Shown: positions 6,350 to 44,711, numbered from the stretch's first letter. The stretch is DNA of 46,874 nucleotides from Escherichia phage SusanneMuster_Bas79 (PQ850629.1), one strand, 5' to 3'. Translations and numbers: made by a program. The notes: generated by a model from the letters alone, not told the origin.

Positions 6350-6357
6350 CTTATCAG

Positions 6358-6435
6358 CATACACAGAACGAATATTATTATCGCATACACAGAACGAATA
6401 TTATTATCGCATACACAGAACGAATATTATTATCG
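6358..6435. repeat. tandem direct repeat, 3 x 26 bp (CATACACAGAACGAATATTATTATCG) plus partial flanking copies
   Basis: three perfect consecutive copies read directly from the sequence, in a convergent intergenic region. Confidence 0.9.
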
Positions 6436-6470
6436 CATAGCACAATATCTCTACGACGCTGAATATTGTT

Positions 6471-7740: not shown

Positions 7741-7830
7741 CATCGTTTGATGTAGATACTATGCACCACCACTCAATCTACGTCAATAGCCATTGTGATA
7801 GAATTAATCATTATTTGAACAGGAGGCAGA
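7741..7830. promoter_or_regulatory. divergent promoter region with two conserved boxes
   Basis: TGATGTAGAT (7748-7757, reverse orientation) and AATCTACGTCAA (7775-7786); extended -10 TGATAGAAT (7796-7804); AGGAGG before ATG 7831. Confidence 0.45.
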
Positions 7831-10561: not shown

Positions 10562-10659
10562 ATTTACTACTCCTTTTTCGAAATTTATTATTGACGAATC
10601 TACGTCACTTAGTCAATACTGTTGGTGTAGAATGATTCTACCACAACGAAAGAGGTGAT
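10562..10659. promoter_or_regulatory. divergent promoter/operator region
   Basis: box GAATCTACGTCAC (10596-10608) and near-perfect palindrome GTAGAAT-G-ATTCTAC (10627-10641). Confidence 0.45.
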
Positions 10660-16331: not shown

Positions 16332-16357
16332 AAAAAAAGGGGCGAAAGCCCCTTTAT
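16332..16357. terminator. hairpin terminator
   Basis: A7, stem GGGGC / GCCCC with GAAA loop, then TTTAT; reads as a stronger terminator on the minus strand. Confidence 0.5.
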
Positions 16358-16373
16358 GAATTTGAGGTGAATA

Positions 16374-16571: not shown

Positions 16572-16600
16572 ACAAAACCCGCATCATGCGGGTTTTTTAT
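16572..16600. terminator. bidirectional rho-independent terminator
   Basis: AAAACCCGC-ATCAT-GCGGGTTTTTTATT; separates convergent capsid operon and leftward accessory operon. Confidence 0.65.
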
Positions 16601-16602
16601 TG

Positions 16603-17142
16603 CTACAGACGCATCGGCATAACAACAATCTTAGCAGTCTCGCCAGATGGCGCATTAAGACAGCAAACTGCGGCATTTGTGTTTCCATTAAGTTCAAATT
16701 TGATACAACTGAATTTAGGATTAAACAGCTTCGCCACTTTCTCAACGTCAACCAGATATCCAGCATTGAAGCCAATTTCCTCTGCTGGCAAGGTCTGCTT
16801 CGGAATGACGCGATCAATATCAGGGAATCGCCCGTCAATCTCTTCACAGATACCAGCACCAACCATAACGCCAGCTTCATCATGATACGTTGCAATTTTC
16901 GACTTTGTATCAATGATGGCGTAGTCATAGCGTTTTGTTGGTGACTTGCCAATCTTGATAATCACATTTTCTGTAAGATTATTATCATGGTTTCCACCAA
17001 TAAATGCGCGATGACCGTCAGTTGATGCAATACGACCATCAGGCATAAAGCAAATGCCATTCAGGTAATATCGCACATCGTTGCGCGCCTGAAATATTAA
17101 TGCTGATTCAAGTAATAGTTTGCCGATTTTTAGTTTCATCAC
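16603..17142 (-). CDS. truncated DnaN-like (DNA polymerase III beta clamp-like) protein
   Basis: 179 aa with DVRYYLNG, TDGHR, DGRFPD-x3-V-PK, EIGFN-x-YL-DV and C-terminal VVMPMRL, matching hallmark segments of bacterial beta-clamp domain II and the C-terminal end of domain III; ATG at 17139 is the likely start. Confidence 0.7.
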   Translation of the reverse strand: MMKLKIGKLLLESALIFQARNDVRYYLNGICFMPDGRIASTDGHRAFIGGNHDNNLTENVIIKIGKSPTKRYDYAIIDTKSKIATYHDEAGVMVGAGICEEIDGRFPDIDRVIPKQTLPAEEIGFNAGYLVDVEKVAKLFNPKFSCIKFELNGNTNAAVCCLNAPSGETAKIVVMPMRL

Positions 17143-17312
17143 TTCACCTTAATCATATGCTGTTTTGCAACCTTCAGGCACTCCTCAAAAATGCCACCCT
17201 TCTTTGCGCTCTGATTGCGCTTGTAATACTGAACTGCCGCATCAATTGCCATCTGGTCGATTTCAGGCAGTTTGGTACGTAGTTGTTTTTCAATGAATTG
17301 TTCTGGTGTCAT
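17139..17312 (-). CDS. hypothetical small protein (57 aa)
   Basis: hand-translated MTPEQFIEKQLRTKLPEIDQMAID...; overlaps stop of methyltransferase and start of DnaN-like gene. Confidence 0.35.
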   Translation of the reverse strand: MTPEQFIEKQLRTKLPEIDQMAIDAAVQYYKRNQSAKKGGIFEECLKVAKQHMIKVK

Positions 17313-18112
17313 TAAACGGACCTCATGAATGCTTTAATGAATTCTGCTGCGACTTGTGGAACTATGGCATTGCCATAACCGCGCAATCGTCCCACTCTTG
17401 CGGATACCCCATGAGTTGCCTCGCAAAATCCGCCTGGTATGACTCTAGTTTCCTTATCTGCTCCATGGTTGGGTTTCCATGAATCCCATAAACATGAAGC
17501 CACATCTGGCGATAAAGAGTATCGTTCCTGAATTTTCCGTCCTTTCTGTAAAATGTCTTGCTGAGATCCCCGTAATCCTTCCATCCTCGCGCCGTTGGTG
17601 TCGCCCATCCTCGCGCCAAAGATGATTCTTTTCCTTTCCTGTGGAGAGCCGACGCTGCAAGCTGGCAATACTGACGCCCCGCAGGCGTAGCCTTTGTCTT
17701 CCAGGTTAAGGAATACAAAATCGAGCCAGTGCTTCCCAATTGCTGCTGCAACCTGCTCTCCAAACAGCAATTCAGGCTTGCACTCTCTGATGAGCCTGAG
17801 AAATGCTGGGGCAAGGTGTCGATCGTCGTCAAATCCGAGAGACTTACCGGCAACGCTAAACGGCTGGCAAGGTGGTGATCCTGTCCAGAGTCGAGTGCTT
17901 TCTGGTATTCCTGCCAGCTGGAGTGCAAGGGGCCACCCTCCGATTCCGGCAAAGAAGTGACACTGTGTAAATCCTTCCAGGTCTGAAGGGGTGACTTCGG
18001 TGATTGATCGTTCATCGACATATCCGTAAGGAATTAGTTTATTGTTAATTAATTCACGCAGCCATGCCGCTGCGCCCTTGTCCCACTCATTGTAATAGTG
18101 GACCATCATCAC
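17312..18112 (-). CDS. DNA (cytosine-5)-methyltransferase
   Basis: motif I FAGIGGW, motif IV PPCQPFS, motif VI FGEQV, motif X GNAIVPQV; compact 266 aa. Confidence 0.85.
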   Translation of the reverse strand: MMMVHYYNEWDKGAAAWLRELINNKLIPYGYVDERSITEVTPSDLEGFTQCHFFAGIGGWPLALQLAGIPESTRLWTGSPPCQPFSVAGKSLGFDDDRHLAPAFLRLIRECKPELLFGEQVAAAIGKHWLDFVFLNLEDKGYACGASVLPACSVGSPQERKRIIFGARMGDTNGARMEGLRGSQQDILQKGRKIQERYSLSPDVASCLWDSWKPNHGADKETRVIPGGFCEATHGVSARVGRLRGYGNAIVPQVAAEFIKAFMRSV

Positions 18113-18918
18113 ATCTTCTCCAGAATTGCCATCACCTCGTGAATATCAGCAACAGGAATCTGGATAAACTCCTCATTCTCTGCCACTACATGACCAGCAG
18201 GAAGAATAACGTGGTCAGCTGGCTTCAGTAACTCAATCAGTCGGTCTACTGGCTTAATCTTTTTCGACTTAAGCACCTTCGCCGTTACCTTATCCTTGCC
18301 TTGCGCCTTCGCTTCTTCGACTGCCTCGTCGATAACTTTAACCGCATCATCGCCATGTTCGCGAGTTACTGCTACGGCATTTGCATAGCTGATTTGCCCT
18401 GCACTGATTCGCGCTTTTACTTCGGCTGGCACATCACCCAGTGACAGGTGCATCTGCACGTCAGAAACTGAGCGCCCTACCTTCTTGGCGATTTCCTCGT
18501 TGGTCCAGCCAAAACCCTTCAGTCGCGTGTAAGCCTTTGCGCGTTCAAACGGGTCAAGCTGCTTACCCTGACTGGACGACACCATGAAGGCGATTTTATC
18601 TGCTTCGCCTCCTGTGAAATCCTTGCACTCAATACGAACAATTGGTGCGCCACGCTCAATGGCACGCAACGCTCCGAGATAGCGATGCTGACCATCAAGA
18701 ATGCGGATTCCCTTCTCGTCTGGAATAACTGTTAATGCTGGCAATGGCTGACCTGACTCCCAGCACTGCGCGAAATACTCCACATGCTGCTCATCTGCTT
18801 CGCGGATGTTGTATCCTGGTTCCAGATAGATTTGCTCAACTGGCACGAGATATGTCTTGTTTACCGCGATTCCGTTGCGCGTTTCTTTGTCTGAATAGAT
18901 TTTGCTTAGTGTTTTCAT
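18109..18918 (-). CDS. ParB/Srx-domain protein (ParB-like nuclease domain)
   Basis: N-terminal ILDGQHRYLGALRA (ParB box GxxRxxA), Lys/Ala-rich linker, C-terminal domain; 4-nt overlap with methyltransferase gene. Confidence 0.7.
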   Translation of the reverse strand: MKTLSKIYSDKETRNGIAVNKTYLVPVEQIYLEPGYNIREADEQHVEYFAQCWESGQPLPALTVIPDEKGIRILDGQHRYLGALRAIERGAPIVRIECKDFTGGEADKIAFMVSSSQGKQLDPFERAKAYTRLKGFGWTNEEIAKKVGRSVSDVQMHLSLGDVPAEVKARISAGQISYANAVAVTREHGDDAVKVIDEAVEEAKAQGKDKVTAKVLKSKKIKPVDRLIELLKPADHVILPAGHVVAENEEFIQIPVADIHEVMAILEKM

Positions 18919-18921
18919 TGT

Positions 18922-19563
18922 TTACTCCTCATCACCGGAATTAGCAATATCGTAAAACTGACCGTATGTTATCTGCTTAAAGTTATCAGGTATCGTTACC
19001 TGTCCATGACCTTCACCTTTTGTATTTGGCACGGCAAAAATCAGGCAATCATCCTTTTGCGGGTGTTTGCCGCCATGAGTAGACAGCATTGCAAAACCAA
19101 ATCCGCGACCAGATTGCTCTCCGATTCCGGTGCGTGCGATGCCATAATGATTAACAATATAGTCTTTCCATTCTGGCAATAACTTTAATTTCTCGTTTGC
19201 CTCGCGCATCACCGCGTCCAGATTTTTGTTGTATTCCCGCCCGTCTTTTGTGTTTCCTTTTCCGCGAGCCACGATTACACGCTGACCATCCAAGAACTCT
19301 TCGCGCTTTATTGTCACAGGGCACGGAAATTCAAACTGCTTACTCCACACAAAGCTCTCAAGTAAGCCACCACCGACTGCTCCCCAGCTACGTGTCGTGG
19401 TGAAAGCGATAGCGCCAACCTTTTTCATGGCGTCGCCAAGAACTTCATTGCGGCGCTTTTGGATGTCATCATATGCGTCAATAACTTTCTTAACATCAGC
19501 ACCTTCAACCATGTAATAATCATAATGTTTTGCATTGCTGCTCATCTTCATCACCTCTAGCAT
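18922..19563 (-). CDS. hypothetical protein (about 207-213 aa)
   Basis: first gene of leftward operon; Gly-rich with acidic C-terminus; family not recognised. Confidence 0.5.
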   Translation of the reverse strand: MLEVMKMSSNAKHYDYYMVEGADVKKVIDAYDDIQKRRNEVLGDAMKKVGAIAFTTTRSWGAVGGGLLESFVWSKQFEFPCPVTIKREEFLDGQRVIVARGKGNTKDGREYNKNLDAVMREANEKLKLLPEWKDYIVNHYGIARTGIGEQSGRGFGFAMLSTHGGKHPQKDDCLIFAVPNTKGEGHGQVTIPDNFKQITYGQFYDIANSGDEE

Positions 19564-19564
19564 T

Positions 19565-19660
19565 TATTGTTGTTTCTACGTCACTAACTATAAACGCCAC
19601 ATCAATCTACGTCAACAGGAATATGCTAAAATCATGCTAATCAAAAAACAGGAGATTTGA
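19565..19660. promoter_or_regulatory. divergent promoter region with two conserved boxes
   Basis: TTTCTACGTCAC (19573-19584), CAATCTACGTCAAC (19603-19616), extended -10 TGCTAAAAT (19624-19632), GGAG before ATG 19663. Confidence 0.45.
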
Positions 19661-19662
19661 GC

Positions 19663-19782
19663 ATGGGTTCAACAAACGGTCCTTCTCGTTCGCGCGCTAC
19701 TGGAAATACCAAAACTGGCGGAAAAACTGGCGCAGTTAAGCCAAACGGTTCCACCCGTTCACCATCGCGCGGGAAGAAATAA
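19663..19782 (+). CDS. small highly basic Gly/Ser/Thr-rich protein (39 aa)
   Basis: hand-translated MGSTNGPSRSRATGNTKTGGKTGAVKPNGSTRSPSRGKK; good RBS; TAATG overlap with next gene. Confidence 0.35.
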   Translation: MGSTNGPSRSRATGNTKTGGKTGAVKPNGSTRSPSRGKK

Positions 19783-20222
19783 TGTTCGGCGCAGACATTG
19801 CCATCATGATCATGTATGTGCTGGGTTTTGCCTGCACGGGCATGGTTGCGTTTCTGGTGTTCATTCCGGCAATGGCGATGTCTGTGTATCTTGGATGGGT
19901 GCTTGCTGATTCATTTCCCGCCGAATATCTGTATTACCTTGCGCAGTCTATGGTCTGGCTATTCCCGGCTATTGCACTGCGCAAAAGTACAAAAATGGCG
20001 CTCTGCGTGCTGACGATGAGCCTTTACGAATGGCTGGTAGCGATAGAGTCATTCGTATGGGAATTTATCACGCCTGTAGAAACGCCGCTTCATGCGCAGT
20101 ACGCATTTATTATTATCGGCATCCATCTGTTCATCCTTTCCATCACTTTTAAATGGGGCGGCGAAATTGGACATTATTCTTGGCGTGGTCGCCATTGTTT
20201 TTTCGCTGATTCAAGTCTATAA
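19782..20222 (+). CDS. integral membrane protein (about 4 TM segments)
   Basis: 146 aa, strongly hydrophobic. Confidence 0.45.
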   Translation: MFGADIAIMIMYVLGFACTGMVAFLVFIPAMAMSVYLGWVLADSFPAEYLYYLAQSMVWLFPAIALRKSTKMALCVLTMSLYEWLVAIESFVWEFITPVETPLHAQYAFIIIGIHLFILSITFKWGGEIGHYSWRGRHCFFADSSL

Positions 20223-25327: not shown

Positions 25328-28268
25328 TGGCTGAAGAAGTCGGCGGAATTGTCTATGAAGTCGGGATGGATGTATCCGGACTTAAAGCTGGCACAAGTTC
25401 AGCGGAATCAGAATTATCAAAATTTGACTCCGCTGTAAGTGGCTCCACGAAGAATTTAAATAAACTTGATGGTCAGGCTGACTCAACTGGCAAGGCATTC
25501 TCCTCCCTTGTCTCCGTGGTTAAAAGCATTGATGCAACACTCAGCAAGATGGCAGCTTCCAGTGATGGTGCAGCAAGCGCTGTCAAGTCAACATCGCAAT
25601 CTGCTGAGTCAGCGAATCAGGTTATCGATGCATTAAATCAGCAACTTGCCATGATGCAGCAGCAACAGCAACAAGCCGCTGTATCAACAGGAAGGCTGGA
25701 AACCTCAATTAATGCCGTTACGACTGCTATTCGTGAGCTTGGAACATCAACTGGCGGCGCTGGCGCAAGCATATCTGGCACAGAAAGATTAATTGAAAGC
25801 CTCGGCAATCAGGTTGCCATTCTTGAAGAGCAAATGGAAAACGGCGCGAGAAGTGCGGCAATTCTTGCGGCGCAACTCAGAGCTGGAGATGGCGCAACTG
25901 ACGCGCAAAAGGCCAAGATTGCTGAGCTGACTGGTCGCCTGTACGACATGAAGAATGGCACAGAGTCGGCTGGCAAATCCACAAACGGATTCAGGAACGC
26001 GCTACAACAGGGCGGTTATCAGGTTCAGGACTTTATTGTTCAGGTTCAGAGTGGGCAGTCTGCTCTTGTTGCATTCAGTCAGCAGGGTTCGCAACTTGCA
26101 TCTGTATTCAGTCCGGTGGCTGGCGCAGTGTTAACGATAGCGACAGTTATCGCCGGCTCACTGATGGCCTCACTTAGTAACGGCAAGAATGCCATTAATG
26201 CCATGAAGGATGCCATATCTGCAATGGATCAGGTCATCAGTGTTTCCAGTAACGGCGTGGCAGCATACTCAGATAAGTTTGCAGCACTGGCAAAAGCCAA
26301 CACAACAGTTGCGACACTGATGCGCCAGCAAGCGCAACTTGAACTTTCAGCGGCTCTCTCTAAGGTATCGAAAGAAGTATCAAAAGCATCAGGTGAGTTC
26401 GTCACCTTTGGTGACAGACTTTTCGCATCTTTTGCTGGTGCAAACGTCAGCGTTAAATCATTCAACGATTACCTCTCAATGCTGAATATCACTACCAATG
26501 ATTTCAGCGAGGCAATGAAGCAGGCTGCATCTGCCGGACTTGCCGGGCAATCCACGATGAATAATATGATTGCCACCGTTGGCGCTCTGGCAAGTCGATT
26601 TGATTTGACCGACCAGCAAGCATTTGAATTTGCTAAACAACTCTCTGAAATCGCCAAAAACCCGAGCAATGAAAAACTTAATGCTTTAATTGTTACTCTG
26701 CAAAAGGTAGGTGAAGGACAGTCATCTGGCGCACAAAAGGCACGAGAATATGCTGCTCGTTTGCTGGAAATTGCCACCACAACAACTGACGCAACAATGC
26801 GCCTGAAAGCTCTTAAGGAGATGACTGACTCCTTAACGTCAAGTCAGGACAAGGCATTGCAAACTGCTCGTCAGACACTGTTTATTGAGAAGCAAACTGG
26901 CGATGAAAAACTAAAAGCTCAGGCATGGCGTGATGCGGAGGCTCAGGGATTAAAGCAGAATACCGCTGCGTTTCGTGAATATTACAATGTCAGACTTGAG
27001 ACGTACCGTCAGCAGGAAAAAAACGCTCAGGCAGCAAAAGATGAACGTAATGCAAACAACCAGCTAAAAACTGAATTAAAGCAACAGGAAACAATCCAGC
27101 AGAAATTAAATAAACTGCGGCAGGAAGCTCTACTTGCTGGTCAGGCAGAATCCACAAAAGAACTATCCCGCGAGCAAGCCATTCTCAACGCGCAGCAATC
27201 GCTTGGCAAAGCTGCCACTCAGGAGCAAATAAAACTGGCTGGTGAGTACGCTGCGAAGATTTGGGACCAGAAGAATGCACTGAAGGAACAGGCGGAAGCG
27301 GAGAAAGAAAAGCAGCGGGTAGAAAAATCATATCAGGGATTACGTGCCATTGCGTCACCAACGACTGGCATTGACAGCGAATACCAGCAACGCATGGCTG
27401 ACCTTGATGCTTATGCTGCTGCGTACCCACAGAAAATTACAGAGATTGAACAGACTCGCGCGTCCATTGAAGCACAATACCGCCAGCAGAGAATGGATGC
27501 TATGTGGGCTGAATGGCAGCAACAAAGCCTCGGAGCGCAACTGTTTGGCACCGCGCTGGATTCTGCAATGAGCACGGCATCAAACAGCATCACCGGATTG
27601 CTGACAGGTACAATGAGCGTTCAGGATGCCATGCGCAGTCTCGGCTCTACAGTGCTTAACTCGCTGGTAAATAGCTTCGTCGAGATGGGCGTGCAGTGGG
27701 TAAAATCTGCCGTTATGGGACAGACTGCACAGGTTACGGCTACGGCAACCACAACGGCTGCGCAAACGGCAGGACTGGCAACTACAACAGCAGCATCCAC
27801 TGCGGCGGCAGCCACCACCACGGCAGCGTGGACTCCGGCAGCAATCGTCGCATCAATCGGTTCATTCGGCGGCGCTGCTGCAATTGGGGTAGGCGCTGTT
27901 CTTGGGGCGCTGGCGATGGGTATCGCTGGCAAGCGAAAAAATGGTGGTCCTGTTAGCGCCGGAAGTATGTACGAAGTGGGCGAAAATGGCTTACCTGAGA
28001 TATTCCAGGCATCCAACGGTCGCCAGTACATGATTCCCGGAAATGACGGTTCAGTTATCAGCAACAAAGACCTGACAGGCGGCAGCGGTGGCGTCGTGGT
28101 TTATAATAGCATCATCAATAACAGCTCAGCGCAGGTTAGCAGCAGCGCCAGAGATAATGGTGATGGCAGCGTAACAGTTGAGACGATTGTGAGTGATATT
28201 GAGAACAACGGCGCGATAGGGCAGGCTATTTCAAGAAATTACTCAACAAACCGGAGAGCAACAGAATA

Positions 28269-36524: not shown

Positions 36525-36714
36525 ATTCTACAAAATCACCACCAACCATTTCGACGATAATGAATCCAGATTCATCATCATATGTTGCCTGCCATATAGC
36601 TCCAGTTTCGTCGCTTATTTTAAAGGTACCACCAAAAAAGTCAGCGCTATACCACTCATCTTCTTTAAATCTTTTGCTTGTTGAGCTTGCACAAAATAAT
36701 TTCATTTGCATCAC
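36517..36714 (-). CDS. hypothetical protein (65 aa)
   Basis: ORF overlapping neighbours in replication module. Confidence 0.35.
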   Translation of the reverse strand: MMQMKLFCASSTSKRFKEDEWYSADFFGGTFKISDETGAIWQATYDDESGFIIVEMVGGDFVEFE

Positions 36715-40685: not shown

Positions 40686-40760
40686 AGCTACTAACCTTTG
40701 TTGATGTTTCTACGTCAGTTAGCTTATACTCAATCTACACCAACAATCAAGGGTCAATTT
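40686..40760. promoter_or_regulatory. divergent promoter region between helicase and primase
   Basis: TTGATG -35 (40701-40706), box TTTCTACGTCAG (40707-40718), TATACT -10 (40725-40730), box CAATCTACACCAAC (40731-40744). Confidence 0.45.
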
Positions 40761-44348: not shown

Positions 44349-44663
44349 CACGTGGGTAACGTGGGGCAGCCGTGGGGAACATCACCTTCCCCACGAACTT
44401 TTACTCTAAGTATATGTAATATAATATAATTATTATTATTTGGGTTAATGGGTAATATTATTATTCATATTATAGATAGTAATTAACATAATATTAACAA
44501 ATGGATTATTTGAATATATTTATAAGGGGATGGGTATGAAATCTGCCCCTTTTTACCCACGAAAAATAAAAACATTCAAATCAATAATTTACGATGAAAA
44601 ACGTGGGGCAACCAACCTTCCCCACGACCTGCCCCACGAGCAAAAATTTACCCCACGGGCACG
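44349..44663. repeat. iteron-flanked AT-rich region (candidate replication origin / control region)
   Basis: about 9 copies of CCCCACG / CGTGGGG (4 left, 5 right, both orientations) flanking a roughly 120-bp strongly AT-rich core (44400-44520). Confidence 0.6.
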
Positions 44664-44680: not shown

Positions 44681-44711
44681 TTGACGTAGAATCATCGTTG
44701 ATGTAGATTGA
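44681..44711 (+). promoter_or_regulatory. promoter for rightward early genes built from two reversed conserved boxes
   Basis: TTGACGTAGAAT (44681-44692) supplies -35 TTGACG; TGATGTAGATTG (44699-44710) supplies -10 TAGATT with 17-bp spacing; GAGGGTGAAGAG before ATG 44740. Confidence 0.45.

What the first reader, a model, noticed from the sequence alone, without database searches (positions are those of the whole stretch)
16572..19660. Self-contained leftward accessory operon inserted between capsid and neck genes
Five minus-strand genes (unknown 213-aa protein, ParB/Srx-domain protein, C5-cytosine methyltransferase, 57-aa ORF, DnaN-like protein) with overlapping stop/start codons sit between a bidirectional terminator (16572-16600) and a divergent promoter (19565-19660), splitting the otherwise rightward head-to-tail morphogenesis module. 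The combination of DNA modification, a ParB-type DNA-binding/nuclease fold and a clamp fragment suggests a host-takeover or anti-restriction unit acquired as a block.
Basis: partly seen in the sequence, partly recalled or inferred. Interest (0 to 1): 0.65.

Follow-up and report, generated by a model that had tools for sequence, protein, structure and literature searches.

The report
Mosaic leftward operon with mini-clamp
The five leftward genes form a real operon, but it is an old, conserved feature of this phage group with swappable gene slots, not a block bought in to fight restriction, and its most interesting gene is a cut-down copy of the bacterial DNA sliding clamp that keeps only the clamp's protein-docking pocket.

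Summary
Five minus-strand genes (16603-19545) run from a sigma-70 promoter (19615->19587) to a hairpin terminator (16574-16596). Three of the four gene junctions overlap.

The window is a Skatevirus-cluster siphophage, closest to E. coli phage Bas77. Every relative examined carries this leftward unit at the same place. ParB-like, 57-aa and DnaN-like genes are the lineage core. The "unknown" gene is P22-type EaC and sits in an exchangeable slot. The C5-methyltransferase sits in a second slot; it is absent in seszw and Akira, has a different target-recognition domain in ZX4, and is 98.5% identical in an unrelated Kagunavirus. Breakpoints fall on gene borders.

The promoter and leader motif TGACGTAGA also heads four other leftward cassettes, including the replication operon. 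The unit therefore looks like part of a dispersed, probably early, regulon.

Published genome-reduced seszw mutants lose the clamp-like and small genes but never the ParB gene. Bas77-type phages remain restriction-sensitive.

The 179-aa "DnaN-like" protein belongs to a large family of about 1.5-domain beta-clamp derivatives. It keeps 16 of 18 clamp-binding-cleft residues but lacks the ring-forming parts. It probably binds host clamp-partner proteins. Functions remain untested.

The parts
16574..16596 (.). GC-rich hairpin terminator at the convergent junction between the 65-aa rightward ORF (ends 16571) and the mini-clamp gene (ends 16603).
   Evidence: Scored as terminator-like on both strands; sequence read. 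Analogous hairpins sit at the other convergent junctions 23558-75, 34944-61 and 41720-37.
16603..17139 (-). Mini-beta: a 178/179-aa derivative of the bacterial beta sliding clamp. It comprises domain II plus the C-terminal half of domain III and keeps the clamp-binding-motif cleft.
17139..17312 (-). 57-aa protein of unknown function (phrog_4439). It is always immediately upstream of the mini-beta gene in this lineage.
   Evidence: Deleted in many seszw mutants.
17312..18109 (-). C5-cytosine DNA methyltransferase, 265 aa, with a short target-recognition domain. It occupies exchangeable slot B.
   Evidence: PF00145 at 78 bits. HhaI alignment of motifs I and IV-VIII. Absent in seszw and Akira, with breakpoints at the ORF borders. 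Target-recognition domain swapped in ZX4. 98.5% identical in Kagunavirus Bas71.
18109..18918 (-). ParB/Spo0J/Noc/KorB-family DNA-binding protein, 269 aa, with degenerate CTP-binding motifs. It is a core gene of the cassette.
   Evidence: HTH_ParB E 2.5e-11 and KorB E 4.5e-6. Spo0J E 6e-13 over residues 40-202. phrog_1033. Retained in all 70 seszw-lineage records.
18922..19545 (-). EaC (DUF5420) homologue, 207 aa from ATG 19545 (the ORF is open to 19563). It occupies exchangeable slot A, next to the promoter.
   Evidence: 70.9% identical to P22 EaC. 65-70% identical to prophage copies named Eac/DUF5420. Replaced by two other small genes in Bas77 and seszw, with breakpoints at 18918 and 19547.
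19546..19583 (-). Conserved 5' leader TGACGTAGAAACAACAATAAATGCTAGAGGTGATGA, carrying the second TGACGTAGA copy and the Shine-Dalgarno sequence.
   Evidence: Identical or nearly so in seven relatives whatever gene follows. Similar leaders stand at 40717->40682 and 10607->10588.
19587..19615 (-). Sigma-70-type leftward promoter TTGACG-17-TATAGT. Its -35 lies within the motif TTGACGTAGATTGA.
   Evidence: 10 of 12 matches. The same promoter type stands at 7786->7758 (family D9). Conserved in relatives.
19624..19632 (+). Candidate extended -10 element (TGCTAAAAT) for the rightward genes that restart at 19663.
   Evidence: Read from the sequence. Not called by the promoter scan. Inference only.
16336..16355 (-). 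Second hairpin AAAGGGGC-TTTC-GCCCCTTT with its T-run on the minus strand. It would act as a back-up stop for leftward transcription before the capsid gene.
   Evidence: Relatives carry inserted genes at 16368-16373.

Best explanation
The region is one transcription unit of a Skatevirus-type virulent siphophage. A strong host-type (sigma-70) promoter at 19615->19587 drives five translationally linked genes leftward to a hairpin terminator at 16574-16596.

The unit is ancestral to the lineage and mosaic. Three genes are core: a ParB/KorB-family HTH DNA-binding protein, a 57-aa protein and a 'mini-beta' clamp derivative. Two ORF-sized slots take exchangeable cargo. In this phage the promoter-proximal slot holds P22-type EaC, and the slot after ParB holds a C5-cytosine methyltransferase with a short, swappable target-recognition domain.

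The promoter and leader carry a motif (TGACGTAGA) that also heads four other leftward cassettes, including the replication/recombination operon. I therefore infer that the unit belongs to a dispersed set of co-regulated, probably early, genes and is not an isolated insert.

Likely workings (inferred, not shown):
- The methyltransferase marks phage DNA at one short site and protects only against matching restriction enzymes.
- The mini-beta cannot encircle DNA as beta does, because it lacks domain I, the first half of domain III and one channel helix. It does present an intact clamp-binding-motif pocket, so it most likely binds host proteins that normally dock on the beta clamp (Pol III alpha/epsilon, clamp-loader delta, Hda, MutS/L, translesion polymerases). 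This phage has no DNA polymerase of its own, so the effect would be to divert or sequester those proteins.
- The ParB homologue binds phage DNA as a regulator or organiser without canonical CTP switching, and is the gene the phage seems least able to lose.
For: Anatomy.

Lineage identity: 99.4% to Bas77 and 94% full-length to ZCEC08; genus context in PMC11990801.

Same unit at the same place in Bas77, ZCEC08, seszw, ST1UNAM, HC6, Akira and ZX4. In CF-SP1 and pIS4-A the mini-beta lies 1.5-2.4 kb after the capsid gene on the opposite strand.

Gene-border breakpoints.

EaC: 70.9% to P22 EaC, present in about 17 phage records of this cluster. MTase: 98.5% in Kagunavirus Bas71, target-recognition domain swapped in ZX4.

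Motif: TGACGTAGA gives 21 hits with at most 1 mismatch, against 6.6 +/- 2.7 expected. Exact copies lie just upstream of the first ORF of the cassettes at 7.8, 10.6, 19.6 and 40.7 kb, and a one-mismatch copy at 24.5 kb. The promoter+leader is conserved in seven relatives regardless of the first gene.

Mini-beta. No DNA polymerase among the replication genes.

Dispensability: the clamp gene is present at >=99% identity in 47 seszw-lineage records and the ParB gene in 70. The smallest mutant lacks genes 16 and 17 (PMC9825161).

ParB.
Against: - No expression data. 'Early' rests on promoter type and on the shared leader with the replication operon.
- The rightward partner promoter is only a by-eye candidate.
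- ParB retention in seszw mutants may partly reflect library design. The authors did not target structural genes, known essential genes or 'likely regulatory elements', and the per-gene table is not held.
- Conservation of cleft residues is also the strongest conservation in full-length clamps, so it shows a selected pocket, not its ligand.
- No phage protein with a convincing clamp-binding motif was found. Motif matches were at chance level (7 hits against a rough hand estimate of about 7.5), and the best one lies upstream of the probable start codon.
- In PEi21 the mini-beta sits beside a phage DNA polymerase, so 'serves polymerase-less phages' is not general.
- The oligomeric state is unknown. 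A ring made of four 1.5-domain units is not excluded.
Confidence: 0.7

Rival explanations
1. One reading: a host-takeover or anti-restriction module captured as one block and dropped between the capsid and neck genes.
For: - It has its own promoter and terminator.
- It contains a DNA methyltransferase.
- In Bas77 and seszw the promoter-proximal slot holds a gene of phrog_14587, labelled 'anti-restriction protein'.
- EaC is shared with temperate P22-like phages and prophages.
- Two of the genes are dispensable in seszw.
Against: - The unit is at this position in every relative examined, with ParB, the 57-aa gene and mini-beta as constant members.
- EaC and the MTase come and go individually at ORF borders and have different donors.
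- There is no compositional break. Gene GC is 0.42-0.50 against 0.467 for the genome.
- Bas77-81 are markedly RM-sensitive.
- None of the five proteins matches an anti-restriction family.
Confidence: 0.12
2. DNA-modification machine: the ParB homologue loads or activates the methyltransferase on phage DNA, and the mini-beta couples methylation to replication, in the way DNMT1 uses PCNA.
For: - The ParB stop and MTase start overlap (TGATG).
- Phage ParB-like proteins are required partners of some DNA-modifying dioxygenases (bioRxiv 10.1101/2025.08.14.668559).
- Of eight distant genomic contexts examined beyond the Skatevirus cluster, mini-beta homologues abut a DNA methyltransferase in two: a Dam MTase with overlapping stop/start and a 568-aa C5 MTase. 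The window's own lineage adds the arrangement MTase-57aa-mini-beta.
Against: - ParB and mini-beta persist in seszw and Akira, which have no MTase.
- A 98.5% identical MTase works in a Kagunavirus context annotated without ParB.
- This ParB has its own HTH domain, unlike the dioxygenase partners, which lack one.
- No clamp-binding motif was found in the MTase.
- Other mini-beta contexts show no MTase neighbour.
Confidence: 0.12
3. The ParB homologue is a KorB-like global regulator. It binds the TGACGTAGA sites at the -35 and +1 regions of the leftward promoters, shuts early transcription off (including its own) and so times the switch to late genes.
For: - KorB-domain and HTH_ParB hits.
- The motif is over-represented and sits on the promoters or leaders of five leftward cassettes, twice at this operon with 31-bp spacing.
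- The gene is never lost in seszw mutants.
Against: - ParB and KorB operators are palindromes. This motif is asymmetric (only its 4-bp ACGT core is self-complementary, read by eye), and no recurrent palindrome exists in the window: 21 palindromes against 15 +/- 5 expected, none repeated.
- The motif may simply be an extended -35 plus a duplicated leader.
- No binding data.
Confidence: 0.2
4. The DnaN-like gene is either a decaying fragment of a captured dnaN, or a true processivity clamp that assembles into a ring, for example four 1.5-domain subunits making six domains.
For: - It was annotated as 'DNA Pol III b subunit fragment' in Bcep781.
- It has the clamp fold.
- 1.5 domains times 4 equals the six domains of all known clamps (arithmetic only).
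Against: - Against a fragment: 181 cluster representatives at E<=1e-10; the full-length members listed are 169-219 aa, alongside some shorter partial sequences. Selected positions are strongly conserved and the monomer model is compact and confident.
- Against a ring: domain I and the first half of domain III are missing, and they carry the native interface. The second helix of domain II, one of the channel-lining helices, is replaced by a loop in the model.
Confidence: 0.1

Closest known systems
E. coli beta sliding clamp (DnaN). From my own recollection only, also its shorter UV-induced form beta* (domains II-III); a library search for beta* found nothing.
   Same: Sequence and fold homology to domain II and the end of domain III. 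16 of the 18 residues that form subsites I and II of the clamp-binding-motif pocket are identical. The conserved C-terminal MPMRL is present.
   Different: Only 179 aa. It has no domain I and no first half of domain III, so it lacks the native dimer interface. One channel helix is replaced by a loop. It scores far below the DnaN equivalog cut-off (36 against 138 bits). It is phage-encoded and dispensable in the laboratory.
Phage proteins that act on the host clamp: Twort Gp168 bound to the beta clamp (PDB 7evp, seen), and Mu MuC, which uses the clamp for late transcription (PMC12867686).
   Same: All are phage strategies centred on the host clamp interaction hub.
   Different: Those proteins bind the clamp. 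This one imitates the clamp's docking pocket, so it would compete for the clamp's partners instead.
ParB/Spo0J/Noc/KorB CTP-dependent DNA clamps.
   Same: Homologous N-terminal and HTH domains, with a size and layout typical of the family.
   Different: The GERRxR box reads DGQHRY, and the ENLQR box reads SSSQGK in the printed Spo0J alignment. No ParA gene is annotated and no parS-like repeated palindrome was found. The host is a virulent phage with nothing to partition.
Phage orphan C5-cytosine methyltransferases (M.HhaI/Dcm type).
   Same: Motifs I (FAGIGG), IV (PPCQPFS), VI (GEQV), VIII (QERKR) and X (GNAIVP) are present. PF00145 scores well above its cut-off.
   Different: It is very short (265 aa) with a target-recognition domain of about 70 aa. 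The N-terminus aligns to the motif II-III region, and the FxGxG segment lies between III and IV. The target-recognition domain is exchanged among relatives.
The P22 'ea' accessory genes and, in general, mosaic early or moron cassettes of tailed phages.
   Same: The first gene is a 70.9% homologue of P22 EaC. There is ORF-by-ORF exchange at gene borders, and the unit has its own promoter and terminator.
   Different: It sits in a virulent siphophage inside the morphogenesis gene order, and it is combined with lineage-core genes that do not move.

Membership tests
Bacterial beta sliding clamp DnaN (TIGR00663) | Three tandem clamp domains, about 366 aa, scoring above the equivalog cut-off | tested here: not met
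   179 aa. It aligns only to beta 136-302 and 315-366. TIGR00663 scores 36.2 bits against a cut-off of 137.65. PF02768 scores 17 bits, below its cut-off of 27.
Bacterial beta sliding clamp DnaN (TIGR00663) | DNA-clamp domain fold | tested here: met
Bacterial beta sliding clamp DnaN (TIGR00663) | Clamp-binding-motif pocket (subsites I and II; residue list from PMC11139829) | tested here: met
   16 of 18 residues are identical; the exceptions are L177->A and V344->T. The six most conserved family positions are all pocket residues. Mean conservation is 0.74 for pocket positions against 0.37 for the rest, Mann-Whitney p 6e-7. Sequence level only.
Bacterial beta sliding clamp DnaN (TIGR00663) | Head-to-tail dimer interface and a closed ring around DNA | tested here: not met
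   The segments that make the interface, domain I and the first half of domain III, have no counterpart. Whether another kind of oligomer forms could not be tested with these tools.
RusA Holliday-junction resolvase (the label of phrog_3007 used in RefSeq and BASEL annotations) | Sequence or fold similarity to RusA | tested here: not met
   No RusA family appears in Pfam or NCBIfam. All PDB sequence and fold matches are sliding clamps. The PHROG label looks like an annotation error.
ParB/Spo0J/Noc/KorB | ParB-type HTH DNA-binding domain | tested here: met
   PF17762 at 44 bits (cut-off 22.6) and PF08535 at 27 bits (cut-off 22.3).
ParB/Spo0J/Noc/KorB | Homologous N-terminal ParB/Srx domain | tested here: met
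   phmmer aligns residues 40-202 to T. thermophilus Spo0J 42-199, E 6e-13, and residues 25-184 to a ParB-family protein (PDB 7bnk). Pfam PF02195 itself was not reported at E<=0.01.
ParB/Spo0J/Noc/KorB | CTP-binding and hydrolysis motifs GERRxR and ENLQR | tested here: not met
   In the printed alignment with Spo0J the motifs read DGQHRY and SSSQGK. There is a weak DGQHR-domain hit. Nucleotide binding itself was not testable.
ParABS partition system | A partner ParA ATPase and repeated palindromic parS sites | tested here: not met
   No ParA is annotated in the near-identical Bas77 genome. The window has 21 palindromes against 15 +/- 5 in shuffles, and none recurs.
C5-cytosine DNA methyltransferase (PF00145) | Family score above the gathering cut-off, and the catalytic motifs (FxGxG, PCQ, ENV-like, QxRxR, GNxxxP) | tested here: met
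   78.2 bits against a cut-off of 22. Motifs were read in the sequence and in the HhaI alignment. They are invariant in a 36-sequence family alignment.
C5-cytosine DNA methyltransferase (PF00145) | Canonical motif order I-II-III-IV | tested here: inconclusive
   Three independent profiles start at the N-terminus and at a profile position after motif I: TIGR00675 aligns query 6-169 to profile 25-162, PDLC00026 aligns 8-166 to 33-166, and PDLC03272 aligns 5-166 to 100-234. The best local match of residues 6-47 to E. coli Dcm is 112-151, the motif II-III region, but with z only 1.6.
EaC / DUF5420 (PF17457) | Full-length homology to P22 EaC | tested here: met
   70.9% identity over 98% of the protein to the P22 eaC product. 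Homologues are named Eac/DUF5420 by NCBI. The Pfam model itself did not report a hit.
Known anti-restriction proteins (ArdA, Ocr, Lar and PHROG 'anti-restriction' families) | Any of the five proteins matching such a family | tested here: not met
   No such hit in Pfam, PHROGs, NCBIfam or PADLOC. The phrog_14587 gene of Bas77 and seszw is absent from this window.
Moron or recently inserted block | Own promoter and terminator | tested here: met
Moron or recently inserted block | Present or absent as a unit among close relatives, or compositionally foreign | tested here: not met
   The unit is present in all relatives examined, and only single ORFs vary. GC content is unremarkable.

The most novel reading that the evidence does not exclude
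The mini-beta proteins are a widespread, uncharacterised class of phage 'clamp-pocket mimics'. They would be soluble, non-ring modules that present the beta clamp's protein-docking cleft and so capture host clamp-binding-motif proteins (Pol III core, clamp loader, Hda, mismatch repair, translesion polymerases). They could also act as decoys for clamp-directed toxins. Either way the host replication and repair hub would be rewired for the phage. In this lineage the mini-beta would act together with a CTP-independent ParB/KorB-like regulator that reads the TGACGTAGA promoter motif.
Probability: 0.3. Interest if true: 0.75.

Novelty: new member of a known kind. Interest (0 to 1): 0.45.

Why it matters
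As an operon this is ordinary phage mosaicism. Its value is as a corrected map: which genes are lineage-core, which are plug-in cargo, and where the exchange points lie. That map is useful for engineering Skatevirus and BASEL phages.

The lead worth following is the mini-beta family.
- It is widespread: 181 cluster representatives at 50% identity with E<=1e-10, found in siphoviruses, a myovirus and prophages.
- It is routinely mislabelled as 'RusA-like resolvase' or 'DNA polymerase III beta subunit'.
- It keeps exactly the part of the sliding clamp that antibiotics and phage toxins target.

If it does bind clamp partners, it would be a new way for polymerase-less phages to take over or blunt the host replisome. 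It would also be a natural minimal scaffold of the clamp pocket for inhibitor work.

The shared promoter/leader motif gives a testable handle on the temporal programme of a poorly studied but common phage group.

Tried and rejected
- A first AF2 run on the mini-beta used 39 close homologues and gave pLDDT 55. It was discarded and redone with a 107-sequence alignment.
- A search for parS-like recurrent palindromes found a chance-level count and no repeats.
- A search for clamp-binding motifs in all phage ORFs found 7 hits against a rough hand estimate of about 7.5. The attractive N-terminal QMKLF at 36714 lies upstream of the probable start codon. ParB's QMHLSL falls in the family's conserved LRLL-LP helix.
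- I tested whether EP23's neighbour of the mini-beta is a ParB. It is not.
- A phmmer search of the MTase N-terminal 50 aa against PDB found nothing useful.
- A family profile against PDB did not return a separate hit for the motif II-III segment.
- Literature searches for EaC/DUF5420 function, for phage-encoded truncated clamps and for E. coli beta* found nothing relevant in the held library.
- The seszw per-gene essentiality table is not held.
- I rejected 'RusA-like resolvase', 'ParB nuclease' and 'partition system' as descriptions (see the membership tests).
- I rejected recent block acquisition on the breakpoint and distribution data.

Full report
**What is there.** ORF listing confirms five consecutive minus-strand genes between 16603 and 19563.
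- Read on the minus strand, the junctions are TGATG (ParB/MTase), TAATG (MTase/57-aa) and TGATG (57-aa/clamp-like). EaC and ParB are separated by 3 nt, with the ParB Shine-Dalgarno inside the end of EaC.
- The first ORF most likely starts at ATG 19545 behind GAGGTG, giving 207 aa as annotated in relatives.
- The hairpin AAAACCCGCAT-CAT-GCGGGTTTT at 16574-16596 is scored as a terminator on both strands.
- A TTGACG-17-TATAGT promoter points leftward at 19615->19587.
- A rightward promoter is only a candidate read by eye: an extended -10, TGCTAAAAT, at 19624-19632.

**What genome this is.** The region is 99.4% identical over 82% of its length to Escherichia phage ClaudiaMuster_Bas77. It is 94% identical over its full length to vB_Eco_ZCEC08. 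There are hundreds of weaker hits in Salmonella, Escherichia and Klebsiella siphophages. The BASEL paper places Bas77-81 in a cluster around the genus Skatevirus. It reports them as O-antigen dependent and markedly sensitive to restriction-modification systems and to Old (PMC11990801). The Bas77 map shows several leftward cassettes interleaved with rightward morphogenesis and lysis genes. A crude gene map of the window shows about six. The interruption of the head-to-tail order is therefore a general feature of this genome type.

**Gene identities.**
- *First gene.* The 'unknown' first gene is a homologue of P22 EaC (DUF5420). It is 70.9% identical to the P22 eaC product. It is 65-70% identical to copies in enterobacterial chromosomes that NCBI names Eac or DUF5420. 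I found no paper on its function.
- *Second gene.* It is a ParB/Spo0J/Noc/KorB homologue with HTH_ParB and KorB hits. phmmer aligns both its N-terminal and HTH domains to Spo0J and other ParB-family structures. The CTP motifs, however, read DGQHRY in place of GERRxR and SSSQGK in place of ENLQR.
- *Third gene.* It is a C5-cytosine methyltransferase: PF00145 at 78 bits, with motifs I and IV-VIII aligned to M.HhaI.
- *Fourth gene.* It encodes a 57-aa protein in phrog_4439, function unknown.
- *Fifth gene.* It is a beta-clamp derivative, discussed below. Its PHROG label, 'RusA-like Holliday junction resolvase', has no support.
- None of the five proteins matches an anti-restriction family or a defence-system model, apart from generic methyltransferase models.

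**Comparative anatomy.** I compared the locus in Bas77, ZCEC08, seszw, ST1UNAM, HC6, Akira and ZX4. The unit lies in the same place in all of them, with the order slot A - ParB - slot B - 57-aa ORF - mini-clamp - terminator.
- Slot A holds EaC in this window, ZCEC08, HC6, ST1UNAM and Akira. It holds a phrog_14587 'anti-restriction' gene in Bas77 (with a 63-aa ORF) and seszw (alone). It holds other small genes in ZX4.
- Slot B holds this methyltransferase in some phages, nothing in seszw and an 83-aa ORF in Akira. In ZX4 it holds a 331-aa methyltransferase plus an endonuclease VII gene.
- Pairwise BLAST places the breakpoints on ORF borders: 18918 and 19547 for slot A, and 17303-17314 and 18106 for slot B. 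Further insertion points lie at 16368-16373 and 16602.
- The ZX4 enzyme shares the catalytic part almost residue for residue but has a different, longer target-recognition region. The wider family ranges from 262 to 362 aa with a near-invariant catalytic half.
- The window's allele is 98.5% identical at protein level to that of the Kagunavirus LotteLoewe_Bas71.
- EaC at 80% identity or more occurs in only about 17 phage records.
- More distant relatives with about 78% capsid identity (CF-SP1, pIS4-A) still have the mini-clamp gene 1.5-2.4 kb downstream of the capsid gene on the opposite strand.
- Base composition shows no foreign block.
- Together this rejects acquisition as one block. The unit is ancestral, and single ORFs are exchanged.

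**Regulatory architecture.** A repeat search turned up a motif, TGACGTAGA.
- It occurs twice at this operon. One copy overlaps the -35 (TTGACGTAGATTGA). The other lies 31 bp downstream in the leader, TGACGTAGAAACAACAATAAATG..GAGGTGATG.
- With at most one mismatch it occurs 21 times in the window against 6.6 +/- 2.7 expected.
- Exact copies lie just upstream of the first ORF of the leftward cassettes at 7.8, 10.6, 19.6 and 40.7 kb. A one-mismatch copy lies at 24.5 kb, and a plus-strand copy heads rightward genes at 44.7 kb.
- The 40.7 kb unit is the replication/recombination operon: SF2 helicase, PD-(D/E)XK exonuclease, AAA_24 protein and SSB.
- The promoter-plus-leader module is conserved in all seven relatives whatever gene follows it.
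- GC-rich hairpins mark the other convergent junctions too.
- I infer that the five-gene unit belongs to a dispersed set of co-regulated, probably early, transcription units. No expression data are available, so the timing is inference.

**Experimental evidence from the literature.** Yuan et al. generated genome-reduced mutants of the Skatevirus seszw and deposited their genomes (PMC9825161).
- seszw has the same cassette without the methyltransferase.
- The smallest mutant (36,975 bp) lacks the clamp-like gene 16 and small ORF 17. It also lacks the neighbouring rightward lipoprotein gene 20. It keeps ParB gene 18 and gene 19.
- Counting records at 99% identity or more, the ParB gene is present in 70 seszw-lineage records and the clamp-like gene in 47. 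About 23 viable mutants have therefore lost the latter, and none has lost the former.
- One caveat applies. The library avoided structural genes, known essential genes and 'likely regulatory elements', and the per-gene table is not held. ParB retention is therefore suggestive, not proof of essentiality.

**The mini-beta.**
- *Sequence mapping.* phmmer against PDB aligns residues 8-170 to E. coli beta 136-302, and residues 121-179 to beta 315-366 with the identical C-terminal VVMPMRL. The protein thus corresponds to domain II plus the second half of domain III.
- *Family size.* An exhaustive search finds 1,794 cluster representatives at E<=0.001 and 181 at E<=1e-10. The full-length members listed are 169-219 aa, alongside some shorter partial sequences. 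It is a family with a fixed architecture, not a remnant.
- *Pocket residues.* I used the pocket residue list in a recent review (PMC11139829). The window protein has 16 of 18 identical. In the family alignment the six most conserved positions are all pocket residues: the equivalents of P242, G174, R152, M362, H175 and Y323. Mean conservation is 0.74 for pocket positions and 0.37 for the rest, p = 6e-7.
- *Interpretation.* The elements that make the native ring are absent while the docking cleft is kept. This phage has no DNA polymerase of its own, so the likeliest ligands are host proteins that carry clamp-binding motifs. Whether the effect is recruitment or sequestration cannot be told.
- *Genomic contexts elsewhere.* The family recurs as an opposite-strand gene inside head modules in Dhillonvirus EP23, Kagunavirus XY2 and the myovirus Bcep781. 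It lies beside a DNA polymerase in PEi21 and before a lambda-O-type initiator. It abuts DNA methyltransferases in two unrelated contexts.

**Mechanistic model and rivals.** My best account is a conserved, probably early, unit in which core DNA-handling functions (ParB-type binder, mini-beta) travel with exchangeable counter-defence or accessory cargo (methyltransferase, EaC).
- A ParB-methyltransferase-clamp modification machine has a precedent: phage ParB-like activators of DNA dioxygenases. It also fits some neighbourhood patterns. Its weakness is that ParB and mini-beta persist without any methyltransferase.
- A KorB-like regulator acting on the TGACGTAGA sites is attractive. However, the motif is asymmetric and nothing has been tested.
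- A ring-forming clamp or a dead fragment is unlikely on the architecture and on the conservation.

**Novelty and verdict.** At the level of annotation all five genes are already in public records, and gene-by-gene mosaicism of phage early or accessory units is well known. The operon is therefore a new member of a known kind.
- The added value is the corrected reading: ancestral unit, two cargo slots, shared promoter/leader motif.
- It also includes recognising the 'DnaN fragment / RusA-like' gene as a conserved pocket-retaining mini-clamp family with no functional study that I could find.
- The methyltransferase's apparent non-canonical motif order is a side observation that still needs a structure.

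Noticed in passing
window minus-strand copies 7777-7785, 10599-10607, 19575-19583, 19606-19614, 40709-40717; plus-strand copy 44682-44690: The motif TGACGTAGA is over-represented: 21 hits with at most 1 mismatch against 6.6 expected. It sits on the -35 or in the 5' leader of five leftward cassettes and one rightward unit. This suggests a phage-specific promoter or operator class. It is conserved in Bas77 and six other relatives at this operon.
   Followed up: partly
window 17312-18109 (-), protein residues 1-90: The C5-methyltransferase seems to have motifs II-III (YYNEWDK...DERSITEV) ahead of motif I (FFAGIGG), which lies as an insert of about 25 residues before motif IV (PPCQPFS). Three independent profile models start their alignment at the N-terminus and after motif I. 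The same N-terminus occurs in methyltransferases of epsilon15 and of Xanthomonas, Burkholderia and Rhodobacter phages.
   Followed up: partly
PHROG phrog_3007; annotations of Bas77_0042, Akira gp73, ZX4 gp27: The label 'RusA-like Holliday junction resolvase' attached to this family looks wrong. All sequence and fold evidence points to a sliding-clamp derivative.
   Followed up: yes
L015 8001-9049; L018 5283-7579; window 16603-18109: Mini-beta genes lie directly beside DNA methyltransferase genes in unrelated elements: a Dam MTase with overlapping stop/start in a 45-kb phage contig, and a 568-aa C5 MTase in a prophage. It could be chance among early genes or a functional link.
   Followed up: partly
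window 16336-16355 and 16368-16373: The hairpin after the capsid gene has its T-run on the minus strand. Just beyond it, relatives carry inserted genes: a 268-aa endonuclease VII-like gene in ZCEC08 and ST1UNAM, and a 115-aa ORF in Akira. A further insertion point lies at 16602, next to the main terminator.
   Followed up: partly
window 6357-6439: A 26-bp unit (GCATACACAGAACGAATATTATTATC) is present in three perfect tandem copies in the convergent intergenic region after the head-morphogenesis gene. Bas77 has one copy.
   Followed up: partly
window 19663-19782 (+) and 19782-20222 (+): The rightward genes that restart after the divergent promoter begin with a conserved 39-aa, very basic, low-complexity peptide (phrog_34767), followed by a 146-aa 'lipoprotein'. 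The lipoprotein's seszw counterpart (gene 20) is deleted in the smallest viable mutant, so the first rightward genes here are not essential neck components.
   Followed up: partly
Kagunavirus LotteLoewe_Bas71 (PQ850615) 25534-26322 vs window 17312-18109: The methyltransferase proteins are 98.5% identical in two unrelated phage genera isolated on the same engineered E. coli host. This points to recent gene exchange between co-infecting phages.
   Followed up: no
window 44371-44399 and 44602-44630: Two similar inverted-repeat elements (CGTGGGGA...TCCCCACG) lie 231 bp apart near the 44.7 kb promoter region.
   Followed up: no
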